A stretch of DNA of 63,740 nt, counting the filler, from Craspedostauros australis (lineage: Eukaryota): NCBI GenBank assembly GCA_030167865.1. It is 4 parts of 4 records of this genome, joined end to end, with 100 filler letters (N's around TTAATTAATTAA, not from the genome) between each part and the next. Parts side by side here need not be neighbours in the genome. Positions count along the whole stretch, not along the records: positions 30,546 to 58,979 come from JALAGF010006418.1; 3 more parts are not named here. The stretch is one strand, 5' to 3'. This document shows, piece by piece, positions 1-56,763 of the stretch. The notes beneath the pieces are model-generated. The model ran no database searches and had not been told where the DNA came from. It saw only the letters and a program-made list of their open reading frames with translations. Positions within the stretch are counted from its first letter, which is position 1. Each line of letters begins with the position of its first letter. A program made the translations under genes and the position numbers.

Positions 1-1606
1 GGAAAAGGAAAATTCACAACACGACCAACGTGACGTGTTGGACAAACCCTTCGGAAGCCCGATGGCGTCATCAGTCAACCATAAATATGGCATTGCATGA
101 ACCGACCATCATGATTGGCTGGATGGTTAGTGGCGTTATGTCAAAACTCTTATTTGGTGGGAACGCAATGATGTCTGCGACAGGTCACGAAGATACCGAT
201 GTCCACAACACGAGGGGAGTTCTCACCTTTCCTTTCAAACAAATATCGATTGCGTACTTGTGAACACAAATAAAATGTCAAATAGAAAATCGATGTTTCG
301 TGATTTTGTCATTGCGTCGTTCTTCGCGTGTTGTACCATGTTGTATTTCGTCTGTGGAACTGGAGGACGGTTTGGACTTAAGGAGCAGAGCGTGACGTCA
401 CATTAAGAATTAACCTTCCGACCATTCGGACAAGTGAAAGCACACGAACCAACTCTTGCACAGTGTTTCAGTGACAGAAACGTGGAGGCATGGCGCCAGA
501 CAAGCAGTCTAAATGTGGAGATGCTGTTCTCTGTTTTATGGTATGGTTTAATTGGTATCTGCATACATTGGTACATCAACTATTGATGATACTGCGATGG
601 GTACCGAAGGTCAACAAGGATGCGTCAGACCAGGGTGGGAGGCGACTGGGAACAGGGTCTCCCGCAGCTCCCAAAGTTGGGCACTACGACACGGCGTCGA
701 ACCGATGACAAAAACGATAAGTTGCAATCATTTCGGAACGGAGGAATATAACATAGAATAATAATATTTTATATTATTATGGTGGCCTCCAATGGAGAAA
801 ACAACATGACGAGAGCGAGTTGTAGAGTCAAGCGAGTCCTGTAGCTCGTATTGATCGAAGATCCTGTGACGTAGGTAGAGATACAATGTAACCGAGGCGG
901 AGTGCTTGTGGCTGGAACAAGACAAGGGTGGGAAAACAGAGCGTGCGTTTTCGTTGGATTCGTGGCGCGCGATCATACGTAATCCGGTTCAAAACGAGGA
1001 GTATATCATCAATACAACACTTAAGGCTAATCAATAGAGACTGTCATCTGTGTGCTTGGGAGCATTTTCACTTCACATCCTGCGCACGCCAGTCAGAATC
1101 ATTCGTGGGGGGCGAGATGCGAGCATCGAAAACGAAATCGTGATCGCATCGCAGTGCAGGAGACTCCGCACACGAGAAGAGGCCAACCAAATATTTGGTT
1201 ATCGAAGCGGGAGTAGAGCGTTGGAGTCTATTCTGCCTACTCTATTCCTATGACTCACCAATACTCTCACAACGGATGGAACGGAGGAGACGGAGTTGTC
1301 TGCGATGGGATCCTGTTCTCGCACATATCATCGCAGCGGTGGTTCACTTCGGCGGAAGGCAAGTGGAGTCCGAAGGACACTCGAGGAAGGTTATTCGTAG
1401 ACCAATCACTGGGACCGTCGCAATGCCTTGTCATACTATGCACAGTAGCACTAAAACATTACGGAAAAGATGTATCAACTGACAGCCCTCAAACTCCCAT
1501 GGTCATAATGCAAAAACATCCTGGCGAAATAGTACAATCATCCGCCGGAATTGCATGACCCCTCATACGAATTCTACACATACACAAGCAGCCTCGCTCA
1601 CGCAAT

Positions 1607-2116
1607 ATGATTTTCATTGTTGCCATGCCCCCGTCCATCGCTGGATTCGCAACTACTATTGCACGGGTCTCTATTACTGCATGCAGCGCTGTTGCGACTC
1701 CAGAGGTGGCGGCCGTGGTTGTGGTGATAGCTGGAGTTGCTGTCGTAGCCTACGCTCTCGGCCGAAATTCGAACAGAGCGTCCCACCAAGAACACGATGG
1801 AAATGAACAAGTCGCTAAACGCGAGGCCAACATCCTCCATTCAAACGACCAATCCACCTCGGGCCCGACAGAACGTGAAATCTCCCAAGAGCGCATGCCA
1901 GACCACAGAGACTACGTGCTTGCGCTGGAGAAGGAAAACAATGAGCTGCATGAGAAAGTTGCAGCCCTAACTCTAGAGAAGGAGAGAATGGGTGACCGGT
2001 TGGACCGGTTGGAAAGGATGATGGATCGTCTTATGTCCCCTGACGACGACACTGAGGACGACACTGACGACGACACTGACGACGACAATAAGGACGACGC
2101 GAACAACGATCACTGA
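1607..2116 (+). CDS. Hypothetical protein: N-terminal hydrophobic/TM segment, coiled coil, acidic Asp/Thr tail
   Basis: 169-aa ATG-initiated ORF; hydrophobic VAAVVVVIAGVAVVAYAL; heptad-like LEKENNELHEKVAALTLEKERMGDRLDRLERMM; DDDT-type repeat tail. No family recognised. Confidence 0.5.
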   Translation: MIFIVAMPPSIAGFATTIARVSITACSAVATPEVAAVVVVIAGVAVVAYALGRNSNRASHQEHDGNEQVAKREANILHSNDQSTSGPTEREISQERMPDHRDYVLALEKENNELHEKVAALTLEKERMGDRLDRLERMMDRLMSPDDDTEDDTDDDTDDDNKDDANNDH

Positions 2117-2825
2117 ATCAAGTCCATGCGAAAGGAGGCCTCCCAGTTGTGCAACCGCGAAACCCAATGTGGGCGTCAGCACAGATGGGTCCATCGCGAG
2201 ATCTCCCATGGAATAGCTCAAGCAGAAAAGTACCGCGGCGTGTAGCACACAAACAACCAAGAGGAATGGCAGCCTCTACGAATACAGGTTCTATTCCACA
2301 TGCATGAAAGCAACTGACACCGTCATTGATTTCGCAATACCATCGAGCATGCAGCAAGGCATGGCCATTAATAAGAGAGCATTCATAGCACAGCAAGGAT
2401 GATAAAAATAGAGTCCATTTGACTGGCAGTGTTGCTCCCGATGCGCTTCAGCGGCGTGGAAAGAGCTCTGTCGTTTCCATCGTGCAACTCGAGATGATAC
2501 AAGCATGACGGCGTTCATCCTCAAATGCCATGTCGACAGGATCGCAACCACTCGAGCCAGCTCTCATGAAGTCAACGGGTCAATCACCCAGGATTTCGAT
2601 TCGAATCTCCCACAACACGCGAAGTGCTTACTCGGGATGATTGATGACATCTCCGCAAGTTTGCACATGTAGTAGTCGTACTGATGAACTCCGCATGCTT
2701 CCCTCAATCATGTTTGTTCACTGTCTGTGGGGCGAAGTACCGTGCAAATTTTCGGTCGATGATGCCGTGTGCTGTCTGCCACCAGCCATCAAAACGCAGC
2801 AGTCCCATTTGTACTCCGTGGATCC

Positions 2826-3599
2826 ATGAGTATCGAACACGCACCACAGATCACGGGTTGGTCCAAAAACTTGAAAACGAGCCTGTGGATGGGCTTGAGG
2901 GGTACGACTTTGTGTCACAAATCCGCACAATCGATGAAGGAGAGAGCACGCTTCCAAATGGAAAAGAGTTGGCAAATGGGGCTGATCTTCCTCAGTCTGG
3001 CGACGGCTGGAGCTGCGTGTTTTGGAAGGTGCGTTTATCAATATCGGCATGAGATGAGCGCAAGAGAACGAGCGTGGGTAAAGAAAATCCAAGAAGAGGA
3101 CCGATTGATGGAAAAGGATATGGATGAGATCGAGGACGACACCGTTGCCATCGAGCAAGCGCAAGCAGCCGTGGCCCAATCAATCGAAAGTCTGTCCAGG
3201 GAAATGGACATCAGCAACGCTCGAATCGAGCGGGCAGAAAAACTCATCGTGGGGATGTCAACCTCCGCCAAGGCAGGGAGAATGAGCGCATCCGAACGTC
3301 TCAAGGAGAAGGGCGCTGCGATGAAACGCACGACGGCGGAGCTTGCGGCATCTCGGAAGAGTGCTCGTGCTGATTGCAGTTCCCCAGTCTCTGCGATCGT
3401 TCCAGACGATCCAGATTCCACCACCCCAAGCCACGTGGTGAAATACGAGAGAGAATCTTTCGGCGAAGAGCCACGGTCGGTTCAATCCACTCCGACGAAG
3501 AAGTCGATGGAGGATGCTGTCATGGCCAACGAGTGGACGAGTGAATGGAACGATACTTGCGAGTGGGGATACCACAACAGCACCGGCCCAACCAAGTGA
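2826..3599 (+). CDS. Hypothetical protein with single TM segment followed by a coiled coil
   Basis: ORF with first in-frame ATG at 2826; GLIFLSLATAGAACFG followed by a charged helical region (KKIQEEDRLMEKDMDEIEDD...). Confidence 0.45.
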   Translation: MSIEHAPQITGWSKNLKTSLWMGLRGTTLCHKSAQSMKERARFQMEKSWQMGLIFLSLATAGAACFGRCVYQYRHEMSARERAWVKKIQEEDRLMEKDMDEIEDDTVAIEQAQAAVAQSIESLSREMDISNARIERAEKLIVGMSTSAKAGRMSASERLKEKGAAMKRTTAELAASRKSARADCSSPVSAIVPDDPDSTTPSHVVKYERESFGEEPRSVQSTPTKKSMEDAVMANEWTSEWNDTCEWGYHNSTGPTK

Positions 3600-47687: not shown

Positions 47688-48794
47688 TTTTGTTGCGTGT
47701 GTGTGTGCACGTGCCTATGTGTGCGTATGTGTGTGTGTGTTTGTCAACGTGTTGTGCGAGAAAGGTAGAGCAGGGTACTCCCCCAAGATCGTGTATGAAT
47801 TATGTGACTATTACTCTATCCTCTGAGGTCCTCGGGATGTTGCTTGTGGCGATCGTCACGCAGTTGGGATTGTGTGGCCGTGTTGAACAAGTGCAATGTT
47901 CGACGGGCTGCGATGAGTATTGCCAATCGTATCATGGGCATTCCTCCTCGCGCCCCCACACAAACCAGTTCAACAACGAGAACAGCAACAACGCAGAAAC
48001 GAGAATGGATGAAGAATCCACGCTCCCACGTTACACCATCATCCACCATCGTCACTGATGAGCTGAGGTGTTTTGTTCTTTTTGCGTTTTGCGTCGGCGA
48101 AGTGGTCGGATGATTCAGACATGGTGGCAATACGGGATTCATGGACTCGTGATTGTTCGCCGCCAACACGGACAGACAAGACGCTGTTTTGATAGGCCGA
48201 TACGAGAAACACGATTGGGTTGAGAATCGGATGCATTCTGGTTGGTCTTGATCCGACCAACAATCTTGTGGGAAAAAACGAACGACTGCCTATGTCGCAG
48301 TTGAGTCATCATCCATAATTGTTGGTTGTCACAGGACATGCACGAGTGCGGTCATTCTGGCTGTGTGGGAACGGAGAATCCATTCGATTGATTTTCGCTG
48401 CGTTTGCCGCACAGGAAGCGAGAAGGCGTTCCTCTCTCGATCTCTCTCTCGATCTCTCCTCGATGATGCCGTTGTGCACAAACAGAGAGCGAAAGAGAGA
48501 GGATCGCCTCTTCATCTCCGACGATACTCTTCACATCCATCGCTTGCGCCATAGATCATATAATAGATCATACCTACCACGTATACCATTGGTGCTCATA
48601 CTGTACATACTCCAAGAGAGATCGTTCGTTGAAGGGAGCACCGTTGACTGCTGAGGTTCGTTTGCGGGACAGGAAGCAAGGCAAAGCAAGATACAACAGA
48701 TTGGGAGAGTCGCAGAGTGGCAGAGCGGCGAAGGATTGGAATAGCTCTGCACCATACCAACCATACAAACCATACAAACCATACACGAAACAAG

Positions 48795-51356
48795 ATGAAG
48801 ACGAGTTGGAGAAGGCAGAGGCGTTCCTCGATGATGACCATGACGATGACGTCGCTGCTGGTCATGCTGGGTGTTGGCATGATGGCAATGAGCAAGATCC
48901 CTGCCGCCAGCGCCCAGACACCCAGCGACCCTCCTGTGTCAATCGCCAAGTTCGTGGAAGACACGGAGCAGCTCTCCACGCTCCGCACGATGCTGCAGGG
49001 ATTGGGCATCTCGCCCAGCGATGCGCAGACCCTGCTCGCGCTCAACAACGCCGCCTTCGACAGGTGGAAGACCAGCGATCCGATTATGTACCATCGCTAC
49101 AGCAAGGACGCCTTCTTCATCCACAGGCGCCTTCTCATGCTGTGGCACTTCGTGGACGAGGACGTCCTCACGCAGGATCAGATCTTCGACGGCGCCAGGA
49201 CCAAGCTGCAGAACATGGTGGGCGAAATCAACGTGCGCCCGGTGCAGCAGACGCTGGACGGCGTGCCGAGAGCGGCCATGGTTGCCACCAACAGGGCCAT
49301 GACGGACGGCATGGTGCACGTCCTGAACCAGATCATCATCCCTCCCATGCTGCATCTGCCCATGCTCGACCGCATGTTCCGCGACTTCTCGGACAAGTTC
49401 TCCTTCAACGTCATGGCTAACATCGCCCTCTTTGCCGGCCTCAAGGAGGAGCTCAACAAGATCTACGAGGACGGCCTCACCTTCCTCGTGCCACCCAATC
49501 GCCGTTTCAATCGTGCCGAAATCGATGTGCCCACCTTGCTGCACGAGGACTCCAAGGACTACACCCGCGCCTTCGTCCTGTGTCACATGCTGCCTGGCAA
49601 TCAATTCTTCGACACCGTCAAGGCGCGTCACGCGGCCAAGAACACGGAGCAGGACTTCATTGTCACCATGCTCGGCACCCACATATGGATCACCACGACG
49701 GATGAGAAGTTCCGATTCCAATCCAGCGAAGTGCTGCTGCAGGATCAGGTGACTAAGAATGGGTGAGTCGTTGGGAATGCACTCATCTTGTGTGTGGATG
49801 CACCCATATGAATTATATTGCGCTGCTGGGTCTCATGCAACCGCTACCTTTCCTGTGTGCGTGATATGGTCGGTGCTAACGGCATTACCTTGGAGTGCTG
49901 TTGCTCACGCAATGCGTGGTAAATGCTTTGGGCCTCCTACAGACGTTCGTTTTTGGAGAGCGTTCCTACTGATCATCGTTTTCATGCTATTGACAATCAT
50001 CCTTCGTCATCTCACCTTCGCACAAATCTCCGTCCTCAAATGCCATCTTCGCGCATCTGCGATCATAACACACATGTCATTTCGTACGCAGAGTGTTCCA
50101 TGGATTGGACATGCCGCTGGCACCGCCCAAAGCATCCGACTTTGCTAACTTCATGCGTGTCTCCACGTCGTGGGATACCGAACCCTGCAACAGAATGTTC
50201 GTCGCCTCCGCGTGGACCTCTGAAACCTTCGCGCAGTTGGCCAACGACACCGTCAGCGTGTTCTGCCCGGATGACGCTGCATTTGCCGCCTTCGACCGCG
50301 CCGTGTACGACCGTCTCATCGAGCCAGAGTGGCAGCGTCACTTGAGAGATTTCCTGTCCCACCACATCAGCTCCCCAGCCATGACCATCGCCGACTACTA
50401 CGCCGAGGCTCCAGGCAACATCACCATGTTGAGCGGTGAGACGTACCAGCTCAAACGCAAGGGCACATCCCCCAGGATTGACAAATCGGTGATCCAATTT
50501 GGTGACATGATCTCCACGGACGGGTAAGTTTGGTCTCAGACGAATCAGACGCAATCTCCGGAGTGTGGCGCCTGCTCTGTTCTGCTGGTGCCATCTATGG
50601 TATGCTGCGACCTGTCGTGCGCAACGACTGGCTGACACCAAAGGCAGCAACCAGCGATGTCTGAACTCGCGAGTGTCCTGATCATGCACACACACACATC
50701 AACGGCAAACAAACAAGCAAGCAAGCAAACAAACAGTAGCTCACAATTCCTTTGCTTTCTTCGCTCCCATCACACACCCTACCACTACTCGCACCACGCA
50801 TGCATCCGATTGGATCTGAACCGACCTGATCAACACCAACAGGTACTTCCACATCATCGACAAGGTCCTGGAACCTCCGTCAGTTTCACGAACGCTCTAC
50901 GACCACTGCAAAGAATCAAACCGCACCTACAGCGGCCTCACGCTATTCGCGACGACCGTGGATTACGTGCGCTTGACAGATCTCATCGACCGCGATCTTC
51001 CACTCACGGGCTTCATCCCGTACAACCGAGCATTCCGTCGAATCTCCTACCCAGCACCGAAGGCAAGAGGCATCGTCGAGCAGCACGTCATTCGTGGACT
51101 CTACTACATCGATGTTGTGGCGAAGAGCACAATACTCACGCCGCTGGAAGGTTTCGACATGGGCGTTGAAGTCAAGTACGACAACGTCACAATGGAGGAG
51201 AGCGTCTGGGTTGGAGGGGCGAAGATCATCCAGGAGGAAGTCTACACACGAAACGGCGTGATGCATGTCATCGATAGGGTGATTGGGTTTGACTACGAGA
51301 CCTCCCCACCCACCGTATCCCCGGCGCCAACAATGACGGCCCAGCCAACCGCGTAG
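48795..51356 (+). CDS. Secreted multi-fasciclin (FAS1) domain protein; exons 48795-49762, 50092-50523, 50843-51356
   Basis: Signal peptide; repeated FAS1 H1/H2 motifs (TLLALNNAAF / DGMVHVLNQII; TFLVPPNRRF / NG|VFHGLD; SVFCPDDAAF / DG|YFHIIDKVL; TGFIPYNRAF / NGVMHVIDRVI); two phase-2 GT-AG introns; Pro/Thr-rich tail. Confidence 0.87.
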
Positions 51357-51734: not shown

Positions 51735-54700
51735 TTATTGCGATTTCATGAACTCCTGGAGGCTCGACGGGGCCGAGGCTGCCTCCTCCATGGCGATTCC
51801 TCCACCGACGATGGCGGCCATGGCGCCAGCCTCCTGCAATGCATCCAAGTACGCGACCGTGGTTGGCCGTTCGATGATTCCCACTCGGCCTTCCACCAAG
51901 ACGGGCATATCGTCGCCGTACTTGTTCTTGAACTCCGCGAGCTCGTCGCTCCGCAGGATGTCAAGAGCCTGCTGTCCTGTCATATCGAATGAGAAATCCT
52001 CGAGTTGACGGTTGGACACGATCAAGCCAGTTGGGCCACCGTCCTTGGACAGGACGGAGAGATCCTTGATCTGCTGCTTGGATGTCACGGTCACGTACGA
52101 TTGCATGTTCATGGTGGAAGCAATCTTGGTGAGATACAGCAAGTCCTTGGCCTGGAGCGCGCCGACGACCAGGCTGACCGCGTCGGCACCGGCCAACCGG
52201 AGCTTGTACAGCTGGTACGGGTACAGCAGCAAATCAGACGCCAATATAGGTGGCGCGAACGAGTCATCAATTGCCTCATTTTCGCTCTCATTGCCTTCGG
52301 AGGTCATGCCTAGCTTCTTCAACGCTGCGCTGGTCGATGCCGCGCGTGCCTTCGTCACATCTTCCAACGATCCACCGAATAGAACAGCGTCGCAATTCAC
52401 GCTGAAGGCCGGGGTGCCAGATAAGGTGTACTGCTTGATGAGCTTGGAAAGGTTGTATCGTTTCCGCAAGCTCCCCGTCGAGGGTTCCATACGCTTGCAT
52501 TCAGGAATGATGACGAGCTTTCCATCGTTCGCGGCAGCTTCCTCGCGGATAGGACCGAACCAATCGCGCGGCTTGGGCTTCGTCGGATCCATGGTAAAGA
52601 GCTTGCATTGCGACAGAAGGTTTGCCAGAGGGACACGTTCCCGCAACCGGTCCACCTCCGTCTCCTTGTCCCACATGAACCCTTCCAACGCGCTGGTGGG
52701 CTTGGCAGTCTTCTCGGCTACGCTCCATTCGACAGTCGACACAGTGAGCGCGCGTCCCGAATGCACTTCGCGGCGCTTGATGATCAACTCGCCATTCTCA
52801 TCCCTTGGTGCGTTCTTGATTGTATCCACATCCAGCTTCTTCGTCGTTGCCTCATCGCTTGATGGGGAATCGGCTTCATCGTCAGTGCCGTTGTCATTTT
52901 CATCATTTTCCGATGACGACAGCTCTGCATCTGCCTTGCGTTCGGCATCCGCTGCGGCCTTGGCAGGCGAGTACACAGGCCTGCCGGACTTGCTGCCGAT
53001 CAGGACGTACCCGGTCGAGCTGCCTTGGACGCTGACTGGTTCCTTCCCGTTGTCACCCTGGAGGCCGAGCGCACCTATCACGCCATTGGAAAAGAAGCCA
53101 TTGATGCATGGGACATTTGGAACGAATTCAGAGACTGCTTTGCTTTCGAAACCACCCTTGCCCAGGAAGAATTTGCTGCCACGATCCAAGGTGGGAAACA
53201 TCAAGCATGCGGAGGGCACAAATGGTGCGCCATTGCTGCTATCATCTTCCGATTCATCGTTACCAATGGATTGCATGCTCTCTTCGAGAAGGCGTCTCTT
53301 GTATCCCATCCACAGGGCTTCGACCTCCCTCTTGGCGAAATCACCTTCGCGCACGTAGAAGCGCAGGCGTGTGCCGGGTTCCACCTCCACGCTGCCGAGG
53401 GGGAACGTGACGGAACCGTCCTTCATTCCGGCGCTGGCAACTTGGCGAACCTGGAATCTATGTCCCTTGCCTTCGGACAGACGAATTAGATCGGATGGGC
53501 TGCGACCGACGGACCCCGCACGTTCGAGTCCGATCAGCAACGCCTTGCGCATAAATGCTTGATCATCATCACTGAGGACGTTCATAAGAAAGTTCGCTTC
53601 GGCCAGCACGGGCTTTGGAATGCGCGCCTTGGCATACGCGTTGCGCATCTTGGTTCTGGCATCCATTTCACCCGCATCCTGCTCATCCTCGTCGTCGTCG
53701 TCGTCGTCTGTCACGGCGCCATCCGCTTCATCCGTCAACTCGGCCTCGGCTTGCTGCACCAGCTCCGTGGCAGTTTCGTCCAAGACGATGGATTGAATGG
53801 TGGATGCACCGCCCTTGACGATCTGGTAGACACCGCCAACGGGCTTGGCGCCCTGCGCCAGCATGGATTGGATCTCGATGTCGCCTGTCATAGCAATGCC
53901 GACGCAACCATCCGCCAATGTTTGGATGATCGGTTCCGCGCCGTCCACCTGCTGATACCGGAACAAACGCGCACGGCTGAGAGAGCTAACGGTGGAGGCA
54001 ATGGCACCGAAGACCCTCGAGTTGGGAAAGTTGATTCCGAGGCCGCCCAGCAAATCATCCACATCGTTCTGGAAGGCCGGCGATGGCAGAAGCATGAATG
54101 CGGAGTTGCTATCCTCCTTTTCCTGAAAGGACGAGAGTCCCACGGCCGCCTTCCAATCGTCCTTGGGGACGCGGCCGTAATCATCCGGCACGTCGGTGTC
54201 GATGACGTGGAAAGTCTGAGAATAGTAACGAATGTGCGCACGGGTAGGGATGCAGCGGGATGTTGGGATGTTGGGAAAGGAGAAGCGTGAGATATTGTAT
54301 TGTTCACATGTCGGTGTCTGGTCAACCCCGACTGCTTGAGTATGGCTTGTTCGACGAAGAGGGGCAAGCCATCTCTGTTTTTGCGATGACTGACAATTGG
54401 ACGCACCTGAATATCCACATCCGGGAGCATGGACAGCACGACGGAAACGCCTGGCACACCTTCCTCTTCGATAGGTCGGCAGGCACGCAGCAATTCCAGA
54501 TCCTCCGCATCGTTTCTCGAAGCCCCACCATCGCTGCTGGACGTTGCAGAGGCGGCAGATGACCCCGTCGATGGGCGCGAGTATTCCAGATTGGCGCTAC
54601 TGCTGATGAATCCACCGTTGGTGCAGCCGATAAGGTTCTTGATGTTGAAAGGTTTGGCAACTTCCGTGACGGTCGGGATGACGGTGGAAGGCGATGAACT

Positions 54701-55060
54701 GTAGAGGCTGCTGATGGAGACGATGGCCAAATCCACGTCGAGGAGGGATGAATCGCTGGGCAATGCCTGCTTCGCCATCTCTGTCGCCTCCTGCAGGGCT
54801 TGCACGAGGTCGATGTTCTGGGAGTGTCCGCTTGCAACGGCTTGTGGCGTCAACTTTGTAGCAGTGTCATCGGATGCTGCGGCAAACAGAGGAGTCTGCG
54901 GCTGCTGACGGAAGGTGCTGGCAGAGGGAACCACAAATGCCGATGCCGTTGGCAATGGCAACCGCACCGATGATTGGCAGCACATGCCGATCGCAGCAAC
55001 CGCGGTCAAGCCGAGATGAAGCCATCTTTGGCTGGCAGCAACACTCGTTGCACGGCCCAT
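51735..55060 (-). CDS. Plastid-targeted fusion of a FIST (FIST_N + FIST_C) domain and a degenerate indole-3-glycerol-phosphate synthase-like barrel; exons 55060-54407 and 54215-51735
   Basis: ASA-FVV motif; FIST motifs LIGCTNGGFI, AQGAKPVGGVYQI, GTRLRFYVRE, CLMFPTLDRG, GFFSNGVIG; IGPS-like motifs IIPECKRMEPSTG, FGGSLEDV, PYQLYKLRLAGADAV, SNRQL; phase-0 intron 54406-54216. Confidence 0.85.
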
Positions 55061-55920: not shown

Positions 55921-56763
55921 CTAAGAGTCTTCACGGTACGTGGATCCGGCGGATGCCAACTGGGCGGCGGCGAAGGCTCCCAAACTGATGGAGAATCCCA
56001 ACAGCACCAGAAGGCCGTAAGTGAAGTTCGGCTCGACAATACCGACGATGAAGCTGTCAATGTTCTCCGGCAACGGGCTATCCGTGGCCTTGCTCCAGGC
56101 CTCGACGGTGATGGCACCACCGGCCGACACAAATAGGACGGTGCAAATGGCCAATCCGATCTTGAGGAACCGATCGATGAAGATGAGCAACTGCGGGGGC
56201 ACGGTGGTCATGATGTCAAAGTCCTCGCCCTTATCCGCCATCCTCTTCCATTGTGCGAGCTTCTTGCGCTCCTCCTTGGCCTTCTCGGCCCGTCGCTTCT
56301 CCTCTTGCTGCTCCTCCATCGTTCGCAGTCCGTATCCTTTTCGCAGGATCTGTTTCGTTCGCTCTTCGACGGGCAGGCTGGGGTCGATGGTGGGCTTCTC
56401 TGCCGATCCGCCTTGGACGGACGTCAGGAAGTCTGTGCCCTGTGACGACATTGCGGACGTTGGCTGCTGCTGCTGCTGCATTCCAGAAGCAGGGGTCGTG
56501 GTGGTGGTCGCGGCGGGAGAAGCAGCATCCGACTTGGTCTTCTGTGGCGCCGGCGCCTCCTGGCTGAATCCTTTGGAGGCACGTCGCTTCTTTCCCTTCT
56601 TCTTCGCATACAGAGCGATGGACCCCGCCATTGGCGATGATGAAGTCGACACTCTTCCACTGAATGCGAGCGAAGTCGTTTGGAAAGCAGAGGTCATGGC
56701 AGAAGCCATCAGCACGATGGCCGCAATTCCCATCATGCTGGTGGAACGCAGTTGCGAGTTCAT
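55921..56763 (-). CDS. Plastid-targeted hypothetical membrane protein (two C-terminal TM helices)
   Basis: ATG at 56763; signal peptide ending TSA-FQT, transit-like region, coiled coil, hydrophobic GLAICTVLFVSAGGAIT and YGLLVLLGFSISLGAFAA. Confidence 0.8.
   Translation of the reverse strand: MNSQLRSTSMMGIAAIVLMASAMTSAFQTTSLAFSGRVSTSSSPMAGSIALYAKKKGKKRRASKGFSQEAPAPQKTKSDAASPAATTTTTPASGMQQQQQPTSAMSSQGTDFLTSVQGGSAEKPTIDPSLPVEERTKQILRKGYGLRTMEEQQEEKRRAEKAKEERKKLAQWKRMADKGEDFDIMTTVPPQLLIFIDRFLKIGLAICTVLFVSAGGAITVEAWSKATDSPLPENIDSFIVGIVEPNFTYGLLVLLGFSISLGAFAAAQLASAGSTYREDS

What the first reader, a model, noticed from the sequence alone, without database searches (positions are those of the whole stretch)
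51735..55060. Plastid FIST domain fused to a catalytically degenerate IGPS barrel: candidate sensor pseudo-enzyme
Seen: one spliced ORF with an ASA-FVV plastid signal, FIST_N/FIST_C (~54850-52990), an acidic linker and an IGPS-like barrel (~52720-51735). The FIST_C-IGPS junction lies inside a single exon, so it is not a gene-merging artefact. Manual alignment to TrpC (Sulfolobus numbering): E51/K53 kept (IIPECKR); general acid K110 lost (PILMKDF -> PILASDL); E159 lost (LIE -> YVT); N180 replaced (GINSR -> IVSNR); ESG altered to EGR. Known: FIST domains are small-ligand sensors, and bacterial NosP members bind heme/NO. Inference: a non-catalytic barrel binding an indole/anthranilate sugar-phosphate, coupled to a FIST sensor, could regulate plastid tryptophan/indole metabolism or link it to heme/NO signalling.
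Basis: partly seen in the sequence, partly recalled or inferred. Interest (0 to 1): 0.75.

Follow-up and report, generated by a model that had tools for sequence, protein, structure and literature searches.

The report
Plastid FIST–dead TrpC fusion protein
This diatom gene joins a FIST module to a disabled copy of a tryptophan-making enzyme; the fusion is real, old and widespread in brown-lineage algae, its counterpart in the alga Vitrella is already published as a non-working copy, and what it does in the plastid is still open.

Summary
Observation confirmed: one two-exon gene (1,044 aa) with a plastid-type presequence, FIST_N/FIST_C, an acidic linker and a TrpC/IGPS barrel lacking K110, E159 and N180. 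It is not new. All 120 listed relatives (diatoms where named) are fused and lack these three residues; the fusion also occurs in Tribonema, Chrysoparadoxa, Pinguiococcus and Vitrella. The Vitrella orthologue is Vbra_5810, an 'IGPS-like' protein that failed trpC complementation in Tang et al. 2019 (matched here by primer ends). The Phaeodactylum fusion was, from recall, noted in 2007. Added here: both halves group with cyanobacterial genes; red-algal, cryptophyte and green-algal FIST stand alone; a separate TrpC–TrpF keeps the catalytic residues; E51 and K53 are also lost in some non-diatoms; no His or Cys is conserved across fused FISTs, against heme/NO sensing; and a non-photosynthetic diatom keeps the gene. 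Best reading: a stromal pseudo-enzyme/adaptor whose barrel may still hold a phosphorylated metabolite (0.45). A link to tryptophan control is unproven. No structure prediction was available. Interest 0.4.

The parts
54407..55060 (-). Exon 1 (aa 1-218): presequence and first part of FIST_N
   Evidence: aligns to the N-terminal FIST region of relatives
54851..55060 (-). Bipartite plastid-type presequence (aa 1-70); ASA-F motif at 54946-54935
   Evidence: read from the sequence; unconserved region; 73 of 98 full-length relatives pass a loose hydrophobic-plus-F rule; no predictor run
54216..54406 (-). Single 191-nt GT-AG intron, phase 0
51735..54215 (-). Exon 2 (aa 219-1044 plus stop)
53874..54850 (-). 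FIST_N domain (aa about 71-332, interrupted by the intron)
   Evidence: orthologues pass PF08495; alignment to cyanobacterial FIST
52980..53873 (-). FIST_C domain (aa about 333-630) with an acidic insertion; the Glu of the GE motif and the downstream His of stand-alone FIST are replaced (V597, Q615)
52812..52979 (-). Acidic, poorly conserved linker (aa about 631-686)
   Evidence: 2% of scored columns at least 90% conserved
52689..52781 (-). N-terminal extension of cyanobacterial-type TrpC (aa about 697-727), among the best-conserved stretches of the fusion
51780..52688 (-). Degenerate IGPS/TrpC barrel (aa about 728-1030)
   Evidence: PF00218 E=1.5e-21; solved IGPS hits
52494..52502 (-). E790-C-K792, the retained E51/K53 pair
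52236..52238 (-). S878 at the catalytic K110 site
52089..52091 (-). T927 at the E159 site
52014..52016 (-). S952 at the N180 site

Best explanation
A nuclear-encoded stromal pseudo-enzyme/adaptor built from two genes of cyanobacterial origin. Shown: the plastid-type TrpC lost its catalytic residues and is fused behind the algal FIST protein, while a TrpC-TrpF of other origin keeps the catalytic set. Inferred: the dead barrel keeps a basic pocket at the old phosphate site (K53, R182, G233; in diatoms also a new Arg at G212) and binds a phosphorylated plastid metabolite such as a tryptophan-pathway intermediate or another sugar phosphate. The FIST half acts as a protein-binding surface rather than a heme/NO sensor, and the pair tunes a partner in non-photosynthetic plastid housekeeping such as amino-acid synthesis or organelle maintenance. 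Ligand and partner are not identified.
For: K110 absent in 120 of 120 listed close relatives and 9 of 9 non-diatom fusions; E159 likewise, with no Lys or Glu within two residues in the 120. E51 kept in only 6 of 9 and K53 in 7 of 9 non-diatom fusions, so no catalytic side chain is family-wide. The Vitrella orthologue did not rescue E. coli trpC whereas Vitrella TrpC-TrpF did. The own genome has a TrpC-TrpF with E51, K53, K110, E159, N180 and R182. In the 120 close relatives, 12 of 17 pocket positions are at least 90% conserved, including replaced ones; mean 0.89 against 0.75 for the barrel, P about 0.004 by resampling. The gene is kept full-length in Nitzschia Nitz4, which has lost photosynthesis and plastid isoprenoid synthesis (abstract). 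The only solved relative of the FIST half by sequence is FBXO22 (E=4e-4), recalled as a protein-binding FIST; NosP also acts by binding a kinase.
Against: No ligand, partner, localisation or phenotype data exist for any member. Pocket conservation may be structural, because the set includes Gly, Pro and buried strand ends, and it is weaker outside diatoms (R182 7 of 9, K53 7 of 9). Gly212 to Arg in 101 of 107 could block the phosphate site rather than help it. The trpC test carried the authors' caveat that no tagged protein was detected, and the construct seems to include the presequence. The own TrpC-TrpF has Leu at the E210 position and was not tested for activity.
Confidence: 0.45

Rival explanations
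1. Ligand-free scaffold needed for plastid maintenance or biogenesis, working like the apicoplast factor AMR1: both pockets are relics and the function lies in conserved surfaces such as the N-terminal TrpC extension.
For: Across the 127-row and 9-row alignments the invariant columns lie mainly in the extension, first helix and FIST core, not at catalytic sites. The FIST signature is eroded too. AMR1 is required for apicoplast biogenesis in a tryptophan auxotroph. Leucomyxa keeps a dead TrpC-TrpF without the rest of the pathway. Retained in a non-photosynthetic diatom.
Against: The pocket is more conserved than the barrel average in diatoms. AMR1 looks, from three primer-encoded fragments compared by eye, closer to another paralogue (L002) than to this fusion, so its phenotype cannot be transferred.
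Confidence: 0.25
2. Neofunctionalised enzyme: the barrel catalyses a new reaction on a phosphorylated substrate using K53, E51, R182 and E210, as Tang et al. proposed for AMR1.
For: K53 and R182 are invariant in 120 of 120 close relatives, E/D51 in 120 of 120, E210 in 103 of 107. The IGPS scaffold accepts new chemistry, as the designed retro-aldolases and Kemp eliminases among the hits show.
Against: K53 is Met in Vitrella and Phe in P0178; E51 is S, V or I in three fusions; R182 is lost in two. A shared reaction would need shared residues.
Confidence: 0.17
3. Heme/NO sensor of the NosP type coupled to the barrel.
For: NosP proteins bind heme and sense NO through a FIST domain (passages). Diatom fusions have their own conserved His and Cys positions, one His in 113 of 120 and one Cys in 120 of 120.
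Against: Those positions are not shared by the 9 non-diatom fusions (0 of 9 for both). The His near the FIST_C end, present in 43 of 43 cyanobacterial and 16 of 16 other bacterial FISTs, is in 61 of 120 diatom-type and 2 of 9 other fusions and is Gln in this gene. No kinase was among the commonest neighbours of cyanobacterial FIST genes. The true NosP heme ligand could not be looked up, so the test is indirect.
Confidence: 0.06
4. A still-active IGPS, as databases label it, with substitute catalytic residues.
For: UniRef and JGI name the relatives indole-3-glycerol-phosphate synthase. E51 and K53 are kept in diatoms. No structure could be predicted to exclude substitutes elsewhere in the fold.
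Against: K110, E159 and N180 are gone in 120 of 120 with no nearby Lys or Glu; the orthologue fails complementation; a TrpC-TrpF is present.
Confidence: 0.03

Closest known systems
'IGPS-like proteins' of Tang et al. 2019 (PMC6380595): Vitrella Vbra_5810 and Vbra_14040, Plasmodium AMR1
   Same: Vbra_5810 is the direct orthologue: its cloning primers encode the first and last residues of P0199/CEM12188.1, which carries FIST, FIST_C and IGPS and falls in the fusion clade. Same loss of active-site residues; no trpC rescue.
   Different: The paper does not mention FIST (0 occurrences) or diatom members. AMR1 itself appears, by eye from short primer fragments only, closer to the diatom paralogue L002; the full AMR1 sequence could not be fetched.
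Phaeodactylum InGPS fused to COG4398 (Jiroutova et al. 2007, J Mol Evol 65:496; not held, content recalled; COG4398 = FIST also recalled)
   Same: Same gene family: Phaeodactylum XP_002182536.1 is 56% identical over exon 2. The cyanobacterial origin recalled for both halves agrees with the trees here.
   Different: As recalled, it was treated as the pathway enzyme and as a Phaeodactylum feature; here it is catalytically dead and present in pennate and centric diatoms, other ochrophytes and Vitrella.
Cyanobacterial TrpC (IGPS, PF00218)
   Same: 33% identity over 283 columns including the N-terminal extension; joint branch with SH-aLRT 99; diatom barrel profile scores 98-136 bits on six cyanobacterial rows against at most 73 on other bacteria and 51 on the own TrpC-TrpF.
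   Different: K110, E159, H161 and S211 replaced in all 15 fusions in the tree, N180 in 13 of 15.
Stand-alone cyanobacterial and algal FIST proteins; bacterial NosP; FBXO22
   Same: FIST_N plus FIST_C; the fused FIST nests among red, green and cryptophyte algal FISTs (SH-aLRT 97), sister to cyanobacteria (94).
   Different: Glu of the GE motif 0 of 129 fusions (43 of 43 cyanobacteria; already lost in 6 of 10 stand-alone algal FISTs); H317 0 of 129; terminal His 63 of 129. No F-box.

Membership tests
IGPS/TrpC enzyme (EC 4.1.1.48) | PF00218 barrel homology | tested here: met
   E=1.5e-21; solved IGPS best hits
IGPS/TrpC enzyme (EC 4.1.1.48) | E51 and K53 on strand 1 (Sulfolobus numbering and roles recalled) | tested here: met
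   E790, K792; not family-wide: 6 of 9 and 7 of 9 in non-diatom fusions
IGPS/TrpC enzyme (EC 4.1.1.48) | K110, E159 and N180 | tested here: not met
   S878, T927, S952; 0 of 120 relatives keep any of the three
IGPS/TrpC enzyme (EC 4.1.1.48) | CdRP to IGP activity or trpC rescue | not testable with these tools
   published negative for the Vitrella orthologue, with an expression caveat
IGPS-like proteins (Tang et al. 2019) | IGPS barrel with unconserved active site and long extensions | tested here: met
   the family contains Vbra_5810 itself
IGPS-like proteins (Tang et al. 2019) | Coexists with a canonical IGPS in phototrophs | tested here: met
   L001 TrpC-TrpF
AMR1 orthologue | Same clade as Plasmodium PF3D7_1363700 | tested here: inconclusive
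   AMR1 not retrieved; primer fragments resemble L002 more, by eye
AMR1 orthologue | Required for plastid biogenesis | not testable with these tools
   needs a knockout
FIST domain family | FIST_N and FIST_C homology | tested here: met
   FIST_C E=1e-4 below cut-off in this gene; orthologues pass one or both cut-offs; FIST tree
FIST domain family | Signature GE motif and terminal His of stand-alone bacterial FIST | tested here: not met
   V597 and Q615; counts
NosP heme/NO sensors | Conserved His or Cys able to ligate heme | tested here: inconclusive
   none conserved across all fusions; NosP's own ligand not found in the library
NosP heme/NO sensors | Heme binding and NO response | not testable with these tools
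   needs spectroscopy
Diatom plastid-stroma proteins | Signal peptide, ASAFAP-type Phe and transit peptide | tested here: inconclusive
   motif visible here and in many relatives; no predictor or localisation data

The most novel reading that the evidence does not exclude
The fusion is one of a set of dead TrpC barrels (this one, L002 and L004 in this genome; AMR1 in apicomplexans) that serve a tryptophan-independent housekeeping function of complex red plastids, possibly in one complex. Because it is fused in ochrophytes and Vitrella but stand-alone in the red-algal and cryptophyte FISTs seen here, it would also be a rare shared character tying the chromerid plastid to ochrophytes, and would make diatoms a tractable system for the unsolved function of IGPS-like plastid proteins.
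Probability: 0.25. Interest if true: 0.7.

Novelty: new member of a known kind. Interest (0 to 1): 0.4.

Why it matters
The gene is mis-annotated as a tryptophan enzyme in UniRef and JGI records, which distorts algal metabolic models. It links two separate lines of work, the diatom fusion recalled from 2007 and the IGPS-like apicoplast proteins of 2019. The function of those dead barrels is open, one of them is essential for the malaria apicoplast, and Phaeodactylum offers a free-living, editable host. The fusion is also a candidate marker for how complex red plastids spread between lineages. None of this makes the present gene itself new.

Tried and rejected
RNA: none was listed for this gene, which is no evidence either way. 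Two separate mRNAs: rejected, because the joint lies in one exon and five transcriptome entries marked complete carry the fused protein (P0005, P0014, P0022, P0048, P0094). Calvin-cycle link through CP12: the cyanobacterial FIST gene is head-to-head with CP12 in 66 of 74 closest loci with room upstream and 23 of 30 further loci, but in only 2 of 16 more distant ones; no CP12 was found in the own genome and a non-photosynthetic diatom keeps the fusion, so this was set aside as local synteny. FIST-trpC linkage in cyanobacteria: 0 of 80 loci. The idea that the fused FIST is a dead duplicate of the genome's stand-alone FIST L090: not supported, L090 and L093 fall on another branch. Retrieval of AMR1 and Vbra_14040 sequences failed. 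A metagenome scan with the non-diatom alignment could not run for lack of a conserved stretch. Literature: searches for FIST domain with diatom, IGPS with diatom and Phaeodactylum, FIST with chloroplast and cyanobacteria, COG4398 and CP12 with FIST returned no paper on the fusion; most subscription papers are not held, and the supplements of Dorrell 2017 and the Leucomyxa paper could not be read and may list this gene. The careful barrel tree did not finish; quick trees are reported.

Full report
Observation. The gene lies on the minus strand: exon 1 at 55060-54407, a 191-nt GT-AG intron, exon 2 at 54215-51735, giving 1,044 aa. Exon 2 alone holds most of FIST, the acidic linker and the barrel, so the fusion is no gene-merging artefact. 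Pfam finds IGPS at E=1.5e-21 and FIST_C at E=1e-4, the latter below its cut-off; orthologues pass the FIST cut-offs. Alignment to solved IGPS sequences and to cyanobacterial TrpC confirms every residue claim. The Sulfolobus numbering and the catalytic roles are recalled; the mutational paper on E. coli IGPS was not held.

Distribution. A search with exon 2 gave 243 proteins, of which the best 120 were listed, at 51-63% identity; named ones are pennate and centric diatoms, and five transcriptome entries are marked complete. All 120 carry FIST, junction and barrel. A full-library search with the FIST part (233 hits, 150 listed) and a profile search (52 hits) added fusions from Vitrella, Chrysoparadoxa, Pinguiococcus, Tribonema and five unnamed sources. 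FIST proteins from the red alga Hildenbrandia, the cryptophyte Guillardia and the green algae Pleodorina and Mesostigma have no barrel. Haptophytes, brown algae, eustigmatophytes and apicomplexans did not appear among named hits; the word-indexed searches are weak for divergent queries (one search returned only itself), so this is no evidence of absence. A full-length, fast-evolving copy is present in Nitzschia Nitz4, a diatom without photosynthesis or plastid isoprenoid synthesis (PMC9292941, abstract and passages).

The barrel is dead as IGPS. K110, E159 and N180 are absent in 120 of 120 close relatives, with no Lys or Glu within two residues of the first two sites. In the 9 non-diatom fusions K110 and E159 are absent in all, while E51 survives in 6, K53 in 7, R182 in 7, N180 in 2, G212 in 9 and G233 in 8. 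The own genome holds four IGPS matches: this gene; a TrpC-TrpF that keeps E51, K53, K110, E159, N180 and R182 but has Leu at E210; and two further degenerate barrels with signal-like N-termini, L002 and L004. Within the 120, old pocket positions remain conserved (12 of 17 at 90% or more; mean 0.89 against 0.75; P about 0.004), although Gly, Pro and buried residues inflate this.

Origin. The conserved stretch before the barrel is the N-terminal extension of cyanobacterial TrpC. In a quick 32-row tree the 15 fusion barrels form one branch (SH-aLRT 100) and join six cyanobacterial rows (99); the own TrpC-TrpF, L002 and L004 fall outside, the last two on long, unreliable branches (only 8 other bacterial rows). 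In a quick 35-row FIST tree the 10 fusions form one branch (96) among algal FISTs (97), next to a pair that includes the Guillardia cluster (94), sister to cyanobacteria (94). The simplest reading is one fusion of two plastid-derived genes in a lineage whose plastid is shared by ochrophytes and Vitrella.

The FIST half. Against 43 cyanobacterial and 16 other bacterial FISTs, the 129 fusions examined have lost the Glu of the GE motif (0 of 129) and H317 (0 of 129), and keep the terminal His in 63 of 129; this gene has Gln there. Part of the erosion predates the fusion: 6 of 10 stand-alone algal FISTs lack the Glu, though all 10 keep the His. His and Cys columns conserved in diatoms are shared by at most 3 of 9 other fusions. 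NosP senses NO through heme on a FIST domain and acts by binding a kinase (PMC12570481, passages); its heme ligand was not found in the library. The only solved relative of this half by sequence is FBXO22. The CP12 neighbourhood of cyanobacterial FIST genes (66 of 74, 23 of 30, 2 of 16) is limited to closer lineages and was set aside.

What is known. Tang et al. 2019 (PMC6380595; passages, supplement rows and the whole primer table read; Fig 6A and S6 Fig not held) defined IGPS-like proteins with unconserved active sites: Plasmodium AMR1, essential for apicoplast biogenesis, and two Vitrella proteins, none of which rescued E. coli trpC, with the caveat that tagged protein was not detected. The Vbra_5810 primers encode the first and last residues of P0199, the Vitrella FIST-barrel fusion. 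The paper never mentions FIST. Cobbold et al. 2021 (PMC8022201, passages) found raised DOXP and MEP on AMR1 loss. The Leucomyxa paper (PMC11528492, passages) reports a dead TrpC-TrpF kept without the pathway. A chromerid table lists Vbra_4894 as trpCF and does not list Vbra_5810 (PMC6668581, supplement rows). Jiroutova et al. 2007 is cited in two papers read but is not held; that it reported a cyanobacterial InGPS fused to COG4398 in Phaeodactylum is my recall. Passages of PMC11843938, PMC3499364, PMC9425035, PMC5462543, PMC3942023 and PMC6142219 gave nothing on the fusion. An earlier agent report on another genome reached a similar verdict; it is not independent evidence. Three AMR1 fragments read by eye from primers resemble L002 more than this gene; this is a lead only.

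Mechanism. Shown: fused architecture, loss of catalytic residues, cyanobacterial affinity of both halves, a coexisting TrpC-TrpF, retention without photosynthesis. Inferred: stromal location, a phosphate-type ligand in the barrel, a protein partner on FIST. I put 0.45 on a ligand-binding pseudo-enzyme adaptor, 0.25 on a ligand-free scaffold in plastid upkeep, 0.17 on a new enzyme, 0.06 on heme/NO sensing and 0.03 on active IGPS. No structure or complex prediction was available, which leaves pocket shape and domain contact untested.

Verdict. A real, well-conserved pseudo-enzyme fusion and a new member of a known kind. Its function is a fair open question and testable in Phaeodactylum. Interest 0.4; the bolder reading, a tryptophan-independent housekeeping set of dead TrpC barrels that also marks plastid ancestry, has probability 0.25 and would merit 0.7.

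Noticed in passing
L002 (G000:C3060), locus 1363-2655, minus strand: Second degenerate IGPS barrel with a signal-like N-terminus; keeps K53, K110 and E159 but has D51, S180, Y182 and G210. Short AMR1 fragments read from primers resemble it by eye; the Atlas lists a similar cluster commonest in red algae.
   Followed up: partly
L004 (G000:C1205), locus 1198-2307, plus strand: Third degenerate IGPS barrel with an SF-APP presequence motif; K110 to N, E159 to S.
   Followed up: partly
L001 (G000:C6661), locus 1456-3111, plus strand: The TrpC-TrpF fusion has Leu at the E210 position while keeping the other catalytic residues.
   Followed up: no
L090 (G000:C415) and L093 (G000:C3405): Two stand-alone FIST genes with signal-like N-termini that keep the GE motif and terminal His; they form their own branch apart from the fused FIST.
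   Followed up: partly
L092 (G000:C6031) and L094 (G000:C713): Two related FIST proteins with an F-box-like N-terminus by eye, FBXO22-like.
   Followed up: no
cyanobacterial loci L005-L084 and L103-L148: The cyanobacterial FIST gene sits head-to-head with CP12, in a cluster with DUF3177 (61 of 80), a metallophosphoesterase (46 of 80) and DUF7734 (45 of 80); CP12 linkage fades in more distant genomes.
   Followed up: partly
window 48720-51356, plus strand: Fasciclin-domain coding stretches in three open frames, probably one spliced gene, converging on the fusion gene.
   Followed up: no
window 55921-56760, minus strand: Upstream gene with a signal-like N-terminus and two hydrophobic C-terminal segments; no Pfam hit above cut-off.
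   Followed up: no
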